In this document: positions 4,800 through 22,052 of the stretch, piece by piece
Numbering within the stretch: the first letter of the stretch is position 1
Layout: each line of letters opens with the position of its first letter
Source: the human T2T-CHM13v2.0 reference genome, Homo sapiens
Assembly (NCBI RefSeq): GCF_009914755.1
Contig: NC_060934.1
DNA: 64,000 nucleotides
Direction: 5' to 3' (one strand)
Notes under the pieces: generated by a model
What the model saw: only the letters and a program-made list of their open reading frames with translations
Databases searched by the model: none
What the model was told of the DNA's origin: nothing
Translations under genes and position numbers: made by a program

Positions 4800-5006
4800 G
4801 CTGCTTCATGCCTTCTGCCATGTGAGGACACAGTGAGAAGATGGACAACTATGAACCAGGAAGTGAGCCCTCACCAGACGCTAAGTCTGACAGTGCCTTG
4901 ATCTTGAACTTTCTGGCCTCCAGAAATGTAAAAAAAAAAAAAGTATGTTGTTTATAAGCACCTAGTCTGTAGTATTCTGTTACTGCAGCCCAAATAGACT
5001 AACACA
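4800..5006 (+). mobile_element. MLT1A-type MaLR LTR, 3' half
   Basis: GCCATGTGAGGACACAG...CCCTCACCAGAC...CCTTGATCTTGAACTT...GCAGCCCAAATAGACTAACACA. Confidence 0.85.
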
Positions 5007-14019: not shown

Positions 14020-14560
<541 letters not shown>

Positions 14561-15941: not shown

Positions 15942-16253
<312 letters not shown>

Positions 16254-18522: not shown

Positions 18523-18684
18523 ACCCCATTATGAATTCTATCACCGTAAATTTGCCTATTTAGAACTTTATATTAATAGAATCATTAAGTGTATGGTCAT
18601 AGGTATTTGGCTTAACTCTATATTATGTGCTCCTGCAGGTTTTTGATGCCTTCTTAATACATATAAAATTTAAACTTCATCTGC

Positions 18685-18999
18685 TTTTTTTCTTTCTTTC
18701 TTTCTTTTTTATTTTTTGAGACAGGGTCTCACTCTGTTGCCCAGGCTGGAGTGCAGTGGGCCAATCACAGCTTACTGCAGCCTTGACCTCTTGGGCTGAA
18801 GCGATTCTCCCACCTCAGCCTCCCAAGTAGCTTGGACTACAGGCATGGGCCACCATGCCTGGCTAATTTTTGTATTTTTTGTAGAGACCTGGTATCACCT
18901 GTTGCTCAGGCTGGTTTCAAACTCCTAGGCTCCAAGTGATCTGCCTGCCTGGGTCTCCCAAAGTGGTGGGATTACAGGCATGAGCCACCACACTCGGCC
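18685..18999 (-). mobile_element. AluJ (Jb-like), full length
   Basis: GAGACAGGGTCTCACTC...CACAGCTTACTGCAGCCTTGACCTC, J-type diagnostics. Confidence 0.92.
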
Positions 19000-19856
19000 T
19001 CTATTTGTTTTTATGAGTGTTTTGACCTGTATGTCTGGTACTCCACTAGGCAACTACAGCCAGTTCTAATTATTTTAGGAGTTCAAGTGTCAAGCAGGAA
19101 GATGACAAAAAGTGCAGATGAGAAACACATATTTAATCACCCATCTTCCCCAATTCTCCTCTGTTTCATTTTATTACTAAATTATACTAAATAACAAATT
19201 ATTCCTTATTTCAAATTTTTTGTTTAACTTTGAAAATATACATATAGACTTATCTTTAGTTTAATTCACAATTTAAATATTTTCTTCAGTTATTTTGGGT
19301 GAATGCTACTTACAAATCCTGGTGATAAAAGAGTTTTATTTTGCCACTAGCTAATATGGAGTGTTCTCATAGAGCTATAAATAAACTCAATACTCATTAT
19401 GCAAATGAATAGAACCAGACAAAATTAAATGGGTTCAGCTTGGTGGCATCGTTTCAGAGATCTAATTTGGGGGTTTCAGTCCTCTAGGCTGAGAGAGCTG
19501 TGGGAGCCACATTAAGTTGCTCTTAATAAATAATAAACCATATCAAGCAGAAATTGCATTGAGAGGGGTATGACCTTAGGTAGTTCAGGGGAAGAGTTAC
19601 AGGGAGATGACACTAGGTGCTGATGATAACTTCTTCATACACTGCTCCACGCCTGAAGGTGACTTACTGTGATCAACTCTTAGCCTTCAGTTTTTAAGGA
19701 TGAAACATCTATTTTTACTAGCTTCTTTCTGATAATCTAGGAGGTATATAATCTCATCTATTTAACATTTCAAAAGATAGGCAGAGATCAACAAGAAAAG
19801 TTAACCAATGTGTTGACCTTGAAACTAAATCTAGGTAAGATTCTTGGCTCTGCCAA

Positions 19857-19887
<31 letters not shown>

Positions 19888-19935
19888 TGCGTGCATGCAC
19901 ATATACACACACAAACCCACACACATACACACACC
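19857..19935. repeat. (CA)n microsatellite with degenerate extension
   Basis: AC run followed by CA/TA-rich sequence. Confidence 0.9.
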
Positions 19936-20385
19936 TGTATATATTTGGGCAGATAACTTCAACTTCCTGAGTTTTTATTTCCTTGTTGATTACAACATAA
20001 TAATAAGGGTGAGAAGGATGGACCAGATAATCTGATAGGGACAACTAAAATGATAGGCAATATAATTCACAGTCCTGGTTTACAGAAGGGTTAAACTAAT
20101 GCTAGGTAAGAAAATATAGGAACTAATTAGTGAGTAGGTCTCAGTTTCTTTAATTCAATTTCTGATTTTTATTTTTTTTTACTATGACACTAATTTCTAA
20201 GTACATTTGAGCTACAAAAAGTATATACATGATTTCACATTCTTGTCTAGACAACATCAGAGTGTCCATAGAATCTGTAAGATAATTGGCAGCTATATTG
20301 GAAAACACAGCTGAGACTGCTGTGGTGAGTAAAATAATTTCATCAATGAATAACCACTTTCGATTATAGATGATATGTAGAGAAA

Positions 20386-20678
20386 TCTATATATTCCGTA
20401 TTCGTAGTCAACAATGTTAAACCATGAAGAGAGACATCAACCCCTGCCCCAAAGAGAAACGGAAGGATAAATTGTAACAATGTGGTCTAATTATGTTAGA
20501 GTCAATCCTCATTGTGAAACCTAAATATGGTCTAACAAAACAGATTTCACAATGAGAGTTGACTCTAACATATTAAGACCACATTGTTACAATTCATCCT
20601 TTCATTTTTCCTTGGGGCAGGGGTTGATGTCTCTCTTCATGGTTCAACATTGTTGTATAAGAATACAGAATACATAGA
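20386..20678. repeat. Long inverted repeat: 134-bp arms, 25-bp spacer
   Basis: 20386-20519 versus the reverse complement of 20545-20678 aligns without gaps at 119/134 identity (hand count). Confidence 0.95.
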
Positions 20679-22052
20679 CCATATTTAGATTCTAACAAAA
20701 CAAAGACCATATTTAGGGTCTAACAAAACAAAGTTTTCACAATGATGATTGACTCCTGGCCAGCTTCAGAAAAAGAAAGAAATTTGTAATTTTTACCAAC
20801 TGTATTTCCCATTTAAGAAACAAATGAATGGGTAAGAATAATAAAATTAGACTTTATTTGATGTTTACGAAAATGCTTTATATATGTAATTTGAATATTC
20901 ACTGATCATCCCATGAGAAGTAGATATTATTGCCACTGCCAGATATAACAATTCATCTGCATTTTTCAGGTGGAAAATTTGACTTGAATTTTGTAGTATA
21001 ACCAAGAAAAATAGGAGAGCCCTATAATTGGCTCAGAACATCTAAATAACCCCAACTCTTCAAAGAGACCTGTAATTACTTTGATGAAGTTGTCTAAACA
21101 TCCATCCATCCTGTCTTTGAAGGATTAGATGCAGAAAAAGCAGATATTTCTCTAATACTATCTGCTAATCTCAAAGAAGTGTTTTCAAATGGGAGAGAAA
21201 AGGTCAATTTTTTTCTTACAAGCTGCTTTTAAAGTATTATTACAAGATAATTGCAATTTCCAACTAATCAAAGATATGTTTAGGTGCTCAGATAATTTTA
21301 TATGCAACTCATACTTTCTATAACCAGCCTCATGTGTATAATTCCCCAAATCTACTTGGGAAAAAAATTGCCTTTTTCTGCTGGGCACTGAGATTCTGAA
21401 ATAAAACCCACAAAGCCATTGCCGGCTTAAACCAGTGGCAGGTCACTAAGGAAGGTCTGCATCTGCCAGGTAAGACTCAATCTCTTCCCCTTAGATCTCA
21501 CTCCTGGTATTCTTCTAACAAATAACCATTTTCTCTATGCTATGTCTTGTACAGCATCTTCAACAGTCTTAATGCTTACTTGAACCTGTGTGTTACAGTC
21601 ATTAAGACAGCAGTATTGTTTTAATGAGACATTTCCATTCCACCCAAGCCTTAATGACTACTTTCAGGTATCTTTTACGAGAATCCTGGGCAGTTGTTTT
21701 GAAGATCATATGCAAGAAAATAAAGTTACTGTAAGCCAGAGCAAAGTTTGATGGGTTACTAGGATGAATGTCTTATTTTCTTGGGACAAAGAGCAGAAAC
21801 TAGTGACTAGTGAAGGCTGCAAATTTTCAAGAATAAAATCTATTTCAAAATAGGAAGATAGATAATACTTCCGGTTTTAATGTTCAGCTTATAGGCAATA
21901 GAACAGGCTAATAATATTGTCTAATTAGAGTATTATAAAGACATTATTGTGATTTATTTTATAGCGAATGATTCTAAATTCTAAAAAGATAAATGATTTG
22001 TTCAAGTCCACATAGCAAACCTTGAGGATCACTCCTACCTAAGAAGATCTTG

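What the first reader, a model, noticed from the sequence alone, without database searches (positions are those of the whole stretch)
20386..20678. Ungapped 134-bp-arm inverted repeat in apparently unique DNA: potential long hairpin RNA or cruciform
Seen: 20386-20519 and 20545-20678 are reverse complements with a 25-nt spacer, at 119/134 identity with no indels (10 transitions and 5 transversions by hand count). I do not recognise the arms as any TE, and there is no obvious TSD. Established knowledge: long, short-spacer inverted repeats outside TEs are rare and unstable in mammalian genomes; transcribed duplexes of this length can be ADAR or Dicer substrates. Inference: 11% divergence suggests an old duplication, yet the arms stay in exact register. 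That is compatible with drift, but also with a maintained hpRNA/miRNA-like precursor or a structural DNA element.
Basis: partly seen in the sequence, partly recalled or inferred. Interest (0 to 1): 0.8.

Follow-up and report, generated by a model that had tools for sequence, protein, structure and literature searches.

The report
Single-locus inverted duplication, likely relic
A real 293-base near-palindrome in a human chromosome 10 gene desert is a one-off local inverted duplication, most likely a DNA-copying error now decaying, not a transposon or a shown RNA gene.

Summary
Arms 20386-20522 and 20542-20678 are 137 nt, 121/137 complementary, ungapped, with a 19-nt spacer. It is the largest close inverted repeat in the window.

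It is not a multicopy element. BLAST of the arm and of 751 nt around it, and 31-, 27- and 28-nt probes with up to 3 mismatches, hit only this locus in the 3.1-Gb genome. A control query from an old interspersed repeat gave 2011 candidates. No target-site duplication of 5 nt or more was found.

The junctions point to an origin. Both arms run into a locus-specific 28-nt unit carrying a 5-bp mini-hairpin. The axis sits on that hairpin, the right arm's outer end shares (T)AGA with the next unit, and a third partial copy lies at 20704-20755. This mix of inverted and direct repeats with microhomology fits fold-back or template-switch DNA synthesis, followed by a 17-nt inner deletion and 16 substitutions.

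Mismatch spacing, wobble bias and the lack of indels do not depart from drift. No Rfam family reaches its threshold. Transcription, small RNAs, editing and other primates could not be examined. Verdict: ordinary, probably a neutral relic.

The parts
20386..20522 (.). Left arm of the inverted repeat (137 nt). It contains all 3 CpGs still present in either arm.
20523..20541 (.). 19-nt spacer. It is not foreign sequence. Read on the - strand it continues the left arm into the 28-nt unit. Read on the + strand it continues the right arm into the same unit.
   Evidence: inverted pairs I3 and I4
20529..20533 (.). Pivot GGTCT. These 5 nt are shared by the inward extensions of both arms. They form one half of the unit's 5-bp/8-nt mini-hairpin and are the inferred fold-back priming site.
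   Evidence: alignments; the role as switch point is inference
20542..20678 (.). Right arm (137 nt). Under the insertion model this is the newly made inverted copy, together with 20534-20541.
   Evidence: which arm is the copy is inference
20675..20678 (.). Outer junction. TAGA is at once the last 4 nt of the right arm and the start of (and base before) the first 28-nt unit. This is the inferred return-switch microhomology.
   Evidence: sequence; I3 (17 nt, 94%); the role is inference
20672..20733 (+). Tandem array of a 28-nt unit, 2.2 copies, 91% matches. The unit occurs nowhere else in the genome with up to 3 mismatches.
   Evidence: D2
20704..20755 (+). Third, partial copy: one 28-nt unit plus the first ~21 nt of the arm, in the right-arm orientation. 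It matches 20526-20565 (score 52). It also matches the reverse complement of 20499-20533 at 34/35 with a single 17-nt gap (score 44). In 500 shuffles the mean score was 18.2 and the maximum 31.

Best explanation
This is a locus-specific inverted duplication of about 140-155 bp of unique intergenic DNA. It is not a mobile element and not a demonstrated RNA gene.

The most likely origin is a single DNA-synthesis error. A growing strand that had just copied the left arm and an adjoining 28-nt unit folded back on that unit's own 5-bp mini-hairpin (AGACC, 8 nt, GGTCT). It then copied itself backwards to position 20386, making the right arm. It returned to the proper template at a 3-4-nt microhomology, (T)AGA, at the start of the next 28-nt unit.

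This would have produced an almost perfect palindrome with an 8-nt loop. Later a 17-nt deletion removed the inner end of the left arm, widening the spacer to 19 nt. Sixteen substitutions then accumulated, two of them CpG-to-TpG differences.

The wider spacer and the 12% divergence are the kind of changes that reduce hairpin and cruciform formation. That may be why the structure has survived. Today it is most probably a neutral relic.

Shown: the anatomy, the uniqueness in the genome, the junction homologies and the drift-compatible statistics. Inferred: the fold-back mechanism, which arm is the copy, the order of events, the age and the neutrality.
For: (1) Uniqueness. BLAST of the 137-nt arm returned only the two arms, from 1 first-look candidate. 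BLAST of the 751-nt locus at E <= 10 returned only itself. A 31-mer and a 27-mer with up to 3 mismatches each gave 2 hits, the two arms, against 0 for the reversed control. The 28-nt unit gave 2 hits, both here, against 0 for the control. A 21-mer gave 53 hits against 78 for the control, so no excess.

(2) Positive control. A 151-nt piece of an old interspersed repeat gave 2011 candidates, and the 40 that were scored were 81-88% identical apart from the query's own 100% self-match.

(3) Junction anatomy. Each arm extends into the spacer with homology to the 28-nt unit, and the two extensions overlap at GGTCT 20529-20533. The left extension matches the third copy 34/35 with one 17-nt gap. The right arm's last bases overlap the first unit (I2-I4 and D2-D3).

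(4) No TSD of 5 nt or more.

(5) Drift-compatible statistics: run length P = 0.15, wobble bias P = 0.23, P(no indel) 0.10-0.20.

(6) Literature. [quoted passage not shown] In yeast Alu-IR assays, raising the spacer from 12 to 20 bp cuts recombination about 40-fold, and divergence cuts it exponentially (PMC10164571, passages).

(7) 12% arm divergence argues against an assembly fold-back artefact, which would give near-identical arms (inference).
Against: No outgroup genome could be examined. The ancestral state, the direction of copying and the date are therefore all inferred from one sequence.

The model needs a pre-existing smaller quasi-palindrome: the third copy at 20704-20755 against the inner end of the left arm. 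If that is older than the big arms it should be more diverged. It is less diverged, 1/35 against 16/137 mismatches. The difference is not significant (Fisher P = 0.20), but it runs in the wrong direction.

An inverted insertion of about 145 nt is long next to the miRNA-sized events in the template-switch study I read, which set only a lower length limit of 15 nt.

The genome search depends on a word-based first look, and no Dfam or RepeatMasker library was available. A very old family (under ~75% identity) or a very low-copy family cannot be excluded. The mitochondrial genome is not among the 24 contigs held, so a mitochondrial origin was not tested directly.

Neutrality is a default here, not a result. 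No expression, small-RNA, editing or conservation data were available.
Confidence: 0.62

Rival explanations
1. The same local inverted duplication arose during double-strand-break repair rather than at a replication fork. One route is snap-back synthesis in polymerase-theta-type end joining. Another is resolution of a hairpin-capped break.
For: The same features fit: an inverted copy lying next to its source, and 3-5-nt microhomologies at both junctions. Sequence alone cannot tell a fork switch from a repair switch (inference).
Against: As I recall, and no call checked this, templated insertions in end joining are usually much shorter than ~145 nt. No deletion scar is visible at the outer junction. 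The accompanying direct repeats are described for replication template switching in PMC10710096.
Confidence: 0.15
2. It is the relic of a palindromic non-autonomous DNA transposon (MITE), or of some other very old or very low-copy repeat, whose relatives are too diverged or too few to be found.
For: The shape, two long terminal inverted halves with a short loop, is MITE-like. If the ends are shifted by 4 nt, a TA dinucleotide flanks each side (sequence). No Dfam or RepeatMasker library was available, so a curated-family match was never attempted.
Against: There is no second locus in 3.1 Gb by BLAST or by four probes of 27-31 nt at up to 3 mismatches. The same search recovers an old family at 81-88% identity with 2011 candidates. 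Each arm lies only about 6% from their common ancestor, so sister copies of a family of that age should be about 88% identical and easy to find (inference). No TSD of 5 nt or more was found. The inner-arm third copy and the 28-nt units at both junctions are not expected for a transposon insertion. The only mild probe excess, a 22-mer with 46 hits against 27 for the control, traces to an unrelated interspersed family. Of the 8 such loci fetched, the longest BLAST match to the palindrome was 35 nt.
Confidence: 0.08
3. It is a functional hairpin-RNA locus: an hpRNA/endo-siRNA source, a young miRNA-like precursor or an ADAR substrate, kept by selection on pairing.
For: Either strand would fold into a duplex of about 137 bp (-184.8 and -205.9 kcal/mol). 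The - strand tolerates more of the mismatches as G.U: 8 of the 11 transitions. Template-switch hairpins are a documented source of new primate miRNAs (PMC10710096, abstract).
Against: No Rfam family reaches its gathering score. The best hit is a plant long-hairpin model, MIR859, at 65.1 bits against a threshold of 130. The whole-window gathering scan gave nothing here. The RefSeq table supplied with the finding shows no transcript over the site: LINC02624 ends at 4957, 15.4 kb upstream. The stem is about four times the ~35-bp stem preferred for pri-miRNAs (PMC10710096, introduction). Base rates are low. Only 57 of 6,054 (0.9%) miRNA-sized template-switch hairpins in genic regions are miRBase loci. 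More than 99% of 5,134,754 predicted human dsRNAs have phastCons below 0.5, and the conserved ones are shorter and less stable (PMC11838218, passages). The internal statistics do not depart from drift.
Confidence: 0.05
4. It is an assembly or sequencing artefact, a chimeric fold-back read incorporated into the assembly.
For: Fold-back chimeras do occur in long-read libraries (general knowledge; no call checked this).
Against: Such artefacts give nearly identical arms. Here the arms differ at 16 of 137 positions with a transition bias and CpG decay, and the centre is asymmetric.
Confidence: 0.01

Closest known systems
Template-switch mutations (TSMs) and quasi-palindrome extension during replication, as described for primate genomes (PMC10710096)
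   Same: An inverted copy lies directly beside its source. Direct and inverted repeats occur together. There are short homologies at the inferred switch points. The 8-nt loop of the mini-hairpin has the opposite orientation at the axis compared with the flanking units. The product is a hairpin-capable sequence in previously unique DNA (paper passages).
   Different: The inverted segment is about 145 nt, well beyond the miRNA-sized events that paper focuses on. The event itself is not demonstrated here, because no parent or ancestor sequence was available. At least one further step, the 17-nt deletion, and possibly an earlier smaller event are needed.
Palindromic MITEs of DNA transposons, the source of several human miRNA families
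   Same: Overall shape: two long inverted halves with a short loop, folding into a long hairpin.
   Different: It is single-copy in the genome. It has no TSD of 5 nt or more. Its junctions lie in a local tandem unit.
Closely spaced inverted Alu pairs and other long inverted repeats studied as fragile motifs (PMC10164571, PMC7999016)
   Same: It is a quasi-palindrome whose arms exceed 100 nt, with a short spacer. The expected behaviour depends on arm identity and spacer length.
   Different: The arms are unique DNA made by duplication in place, not two independent insertions. An inverted partial-Alu pair of the usual kind lies in the same window at 15992-16219.
PATRRs (palindromic AT-rich repeats)
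   Same: It is a non-TE palindrome a few hundred bp long in non-coding DNA.
   Different: PATRRs are near-perfect and more than 90% AT according to the review (PMC7999016). This one is 64.5% AT and 88% matched, with a 19-nt spacer.

Membership tests
MITE / non-autonomous DNA transposon | Multiple dispersed copies in the genome | tested here: not met
   Only this locus was found by BLAST and by 31-, 27- and 28-nt probes with up to 3 mismatches. The positive control gave 2011 candidates.
MITE / non-autonomous DNA transposon | Target-site duplication flanking the terminal inverted repeats | tested here: not met
   No direct repeat of 5 nt or more when each end is allowed to shift by +/-8 nt. Three 4-nt matches were found among 289 end combinations, which is chance level. 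A 2-nt TA duplication cannot be excluded.
MITE / non-autonomous DNA transposon | Termini matching a curated superfamily consensus (Dfam/Repbase) | not testable with these tools
   No repeat library is held.
Template-switch / fold-back inverted duplication | The inverted copy lies next to its source, with no dispersed copies | tested here: met
Template-switch / fold-back inverted duplication | Short homology at the switch points, often with accompanying direct repeats | tested here: met
   The GGTCT pivot at 20529-20533 is shared by both arm extensions. (T)AGA at 20675-20678 is shared with the next 28-nt unit. There is a direct third copy at 20704-20755. That these sites were the actual switch points is inference.
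Template-switch / fold-back inverted duplication | An ancestral or outgroup sequence lacks the inverted segment and is explained better by a switch alignment than by a forward alignment | not testable with these tools
   No other primate or mammalian genome is held.
miRNA precursor (any Rfam family) | Score at or above the family's gathering threshold | tested here: not met
   The best hits are MIR859 at 65.1 against 130, MIR5998 at 56.7 against 180 and MIR9560 at 36.6 against 74. All are plant long-hairpin models. Nothing was found here at gathering level.
miRNA precursor (any Rfam family) | Stem of about 35 bp with an apical loop of 10 nt or more (PMC10710096, introduction) | tested here: not met
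   The stem is about 137 bp and the loop 19 nt.
hpRNA / endo-siRNA locus | Transcription through both arms and phased 21-23-nt small RNAs | not testable with these tools
   No expression data are held. The supplied RefSeq table shows no transcript over 20386-20678.
PATRR | Near-perfect palindrome with more than 90% AT (PMC7999016) | tested here: not met
   64.5% AT. 88% arm identity and a 19-nt spacer.

The most novel reading that the evidence does not exclude
The palindrome is transcribed, most plausibly from the - strand, where 8 of the 11 transition mismatches become G.U pairs. It would then act as a primate-born long hairpin RNA yielding endo-siRNAs or a young miRNA-like product, or serve as a non-Alu ADAR1 substrate. 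That would make it a rare human example of a non-repeat hpRNA gene created in one step by template switching.
Probability: 0.04. Interest if true: 0.6.

Novelty: new member of a known kind. Interest (0 to 1): 0.2.

Why it matters
It matters modestly. The locus is a clean and unusually long example of how replication or repair template switching can build a hairpin-capable palindrome of about 290 bp from unique DNA. Its switch-point microhomologies, a seeding mini-hairpin and a centre-widening deletion are all still readable. It could serve as a worked case for studies of how palindromes are born and stabilised, and as one more piece of raw material for new hairpin RNAs. Nothing found here suggests a present function, and such quasi-palindromes are already a catalogued class of feature in the human genome.

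Tried and rejected
(1) Multicopy TE or MITE. Rejected on the genome-wide searches with a working positive control.

(2) The mild excess for one 22-mer, 46 hits against 27 for the control. I fetched 8 of the hit loci. Seven of them belong to one interspersed family, 69-89% identical to each other. Their similarity to the palindrome is confined to the probe region: the longest BLAST match in any of the 8 loci is 35 nt. This is a chance resemblance.

(3) Known RNA families. The evalue-mode Rfam scan of 19800-21300 gave 19 matches, all below their gathering scores. The high ones are plant long-hairpin miRNA models that score on stem structure alone. The gathering-mode scan of the whole window gave one hit elsewhere.

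(4) Signs of selection inside the one sequence: run length, strand bias of wobble-compatible transitions, absence of indels. None is significant.

(5) Ordering the events by divergence. The third copy against the left arm has 1/35 mismatches and arm against arm has 16/137, Fisher P = 0.20. This is too little data to order anything.

(6) The supplements of PMC10710096 (3 files held as text) were searched for a 16-nt core of the arm, for its reverse complement and for 'chr10'. There were no occurrences. That paper's genome-wide hairpin list may lie in files not held.

(7) A literature search for LINC02624 found 3 papers, all on uterine fibroids by title and abstract. None bears on this site.

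(8) Earlier findings of this scan were not open to the session.

(9) Not tried. I did not search the literature for this locus by coordinate or sequence beyond, so I make no claim that it is absent from published inverted-repeat catalogues.

Full report
**1.

The repeat finder reports arms 20386-20522 and 20542-20678: 137 nt, 88% complementary, 19 nt apart.
- A base-by-base comparison gives 121/137 matches and 16 mismatches (11 transitions, 5 transversions), with no indel.
- Pairing does not continue outward. 10 of the next 39 positions pair, which is chance level.

The fold energies are far from shuffled sequence.

| Fold | Energy (kcal/mol) | z-score | Shuffles as good |
|---|---|---|---|
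| RNA, + strand | -184.8 | -25.9 | 0 of 100 |
| RNA, - strand | -205.9 | -30.1 | 0 of 100 |
| DNA | -106.7 | -24.7 | 0 of 200 |

Among the six close inverted pairs found in the whole window, this one is the longest and the best matched.

**2. It is not a multicopy element**

The window's own genome (3.1 Gb, 24 contigs, no mitochondrial contig) could be searched.

| Query | Result | Reversed control |
|---|---|---|
| 137-nt arm, BLAST | the two arms only, from 1 first-look candidate | n/a |
| 751 nt around the locus, BLAST at E <= 10 | itself only | n/a |
| 31-mer from the perfectly matched core, up to 3 mismatches | 2 hits, the two arms | 0 |
| 27-mer from the inner arm, up to 3 mismatches | 2 hits, the two arms | 0 |
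| 21-mer, up to 3 mismatches | 53 hits | 78 |
| 22-mer, up to 3 mismatches | 46 hits | 27 |

- The 21-mer shows no excess over its control.
- I followed up the 22-mer excess by fetching eight of the hit loci. Seven belong to one interspersed family. The longest BLAST match of any of the eight loci to the palindrome is 35 nt. The excess is a chance resemblance.
- The tool warns that its first look is word-based, so I ran a positive control. A 151-nt piece of that old family returned 2011 candidates. Of the 40 scored, one was the query's own 100% match and the other 39 were 81-88% identical.
- A family of comparable age and copy number would therefore have been seen.
- No flanking direct repeat of 5 nt or more exists, even when each end is allowed to shift by 8 nt.

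**3.

- Directly after the right arm lies a 28-nt tandem unit (20672-20733, 2.2 copies, 91% matches).
- With up to 3 mismatches this unit occurs nowhere else in the genome: 2 hits, both here, control 0.
- The unit contains its own mini-hairpin: AGACC, 8 nt, GGTCT.
- After the second unit come the first ~21 nt of the arm again, in the right-arm orientation. Together, 20704-20755 forms a third, partial copy.

Local alignment of 20679-20760 against the palindrome gives two matches (the alignment is also shown).
- Score 52 to the + strand, at 20526-20565: the spacer plus the start of the right arm.
- Score 44 to the reverse complement, at 20499-20533: the inner end of the left arm plus the spacer. 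This is 34/35 identical with a single 17-nt gap.
- In 500 shuffles the mean score was 18.2, the SD 2.6 and the maximum 31.

So the 'spacer' is not foreign sequence. Read on the - strand it continues the left arm into the unit. Read on the + strand it continues the right arm into the unit. The two extensions overlap at GGTCT 20529-20533. At the outer end, the last bases of the right arm, (T)AGA at 20675-20678, are also the first bases of the first unit.

**4. Most likely origin (inference)**

The pattern is an inverted copy beside its source, accompanied by direct repeats, with 3-5-nt homologies at both junctions. [quoted passage not shown] Loop inversions and multi-switch cases are also known (PMC10710096; passages and sections 6, 9 and 13 read).

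The simplest reading has four steps.
- A nascent strand that had copied the left arm and one unit folded back on the unit's 5-bp stem.
- It copied itself back to 20386.
- It rejoined the template at (T)AGA.
- This inserted about 145 nt and created a palindrome with arms of about 155 nt and an 8-nt loop.

A later 17-nt deletion at the inner end of the left arm gives the present asymmetric 19-nt spacer.

The third copy implies that a smaller quasi-palindrome already existed at the site, or that the event involved more than two switches. One genome cannot decide between these. The divergence comparison, 1/35 against 16/137 mismatches (Fisher P = 0.20), is too weak to order the events and, if anything, runs against 'small one first'. 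A break-repair version, snap-back synthesis, fits the same anatomy and is kept as a rival.

**5. Age**

The arm-to-arm distance is 0.117 raw and 0.127 +/- 0.033 with Jukes-Cantor correction.
- With both arms evolving at 0.5 to 2.2e-9 substitutions per site per year, the point estimates are 127, 63, 42 and 29 My.
- That means tens of millions of years, with wide error.
- The left arm keeps 3 CpGs and the right arm none. Two of the differences are CpG/TpG.
- These rates are assumptions, not measurements made here.

**6. Is there any sign of maintenance?**

Not in this sequence.
- The longest perfect run (33 nt) has P = 0.15 under random placement of the mismatches.
- Transitions compatible with G.U number 3 on the + strand and 8 on the - strand (binomial P = 0.23).
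- With 16 substitutions and indel-to-substitution ratios of 1:7 to 1:10, the chance of seeing no indel is 0.10-0.20.
- Once the arms are followed into the spacer there is an indel, the 17-nt gap.

No Rfam family reaches its gathering score.
- The top evalue-mode hits are plant long-hairpin miRNA models that score on stem structure alone: MIR859 at 65.1 against 130 bits and MIR5998 at 56.7 against 180.
- The whole-window gathering scan found only a signal-recognition-particle RNA match at 18716-18863.

The RefSeq table supplied with the finding shows no transcript over the site.

Base rates are low.
- 57 of 6,054 (0.9%) miRNA-sized template-switch hairpins in genic regions are miRBase loci (PMC10710096, section 9).
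- More than 99% of 5,134,754 predicted human dsRNAs have phastCons below 0.5, and the ~1,500 conserved ones are shorter and less stable (PMC11838218, passages).

**7. Why it may persist**

- In yeast assays with inverted Alus, widening the spacer from 12 to 20 bp lowers induced recombination about 40-fold.
- Divergence lowers it exponentially, with instability lost at 75% identity.
- A single mismatch near the centre already matters (PMC10164571, introduction passages).
- A review states the same principles and quotes a catalogue with 718 spacer-free, near-perfect human palindromes longer than 200 bp (PMC7999016, passages).
- The present 19-nt spacer, a mismatch three pairs from the loop and 12% divergence all point toward stability.
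- That this explains survival here is inference.

**8. Comparison and verdict**

It works like a template-switch or fold-back inverted duplication and meets the features of that class that could be tested. The defining test, an ancestral sequence lacking the inverted segment, was not possible. It fails the tested defining features of three other classes.

| Class | Tested feature | Result |
|---|---|---|
| MITE | copy number, TSD | single locus; no TSD of 5 nt or more |
| Rfam miRNA families | gathering threshold, stem length | below threshold; stem about 137 bp |
| PATRR | more than 90% AT, near-perfect arms | 64.5% AT, 88% arm identity |

It is a new member of a known kind, of low interest.

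What remains open:
- comparison with other primates;
- a curated repeat-library search;
- the mitochondrial genome;
- all expression, small-RNA and editing data.

The boldest reading not excluded is a primate-born hairpin-RNA gene. I put it at about 4%.

Noticed in passing
window 15965-16240 (arms 15992-16074 / 16137-16219): Two partial Alu-like pieces sit head to head. The first is in reverse orientation with its T-run at the left. The second is forward with an A-rich tail at the right. Together they form an 83-nt-arm, 83%-matched inverted repeat with a 62-nt spacer inside one masked block. Its right arm also pairs with another masked repeat at 14248-14324 (77 nt, 83%).
   Followed up: partly
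window 19846-19950: A CA-rich microsatellite with interspersed GC/AT steps lies about 440 bp upstream of the palindrome (family D1). Whether such a tract promoted fork stalling and the template switch is pure speculation.
   Followed up: no
window 18716-18863 (- strand): The only Rfam match in the window at gathering level is Metazoa_SRP, 71.1 bits against a threshold of 70. It lies inside a masked repeat at 18652-18892. It is most likely a 7SL-derived (Alu-type) fragment rather than an SRP RNA gene.
   Followed up: no
loci L003-L009 (own genome, 7 places on 6 chromosomes): These belong to an old interspersed repeat family, 69-89% identical to each other, with 2011 first-look candidates genome-wide. 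The family shares a ~22-nt word with the arm by chance. It was not named, because no repeat library is held.
   Followed up: partly
window 20605-20609: There is a run of five T on the + strand inside the right arm. It would act as a Pol III terminator if the + strand were transcribed by that polymerase. The - strand of the palindrome has one four-T run, in the spacer.
   Followed up: no
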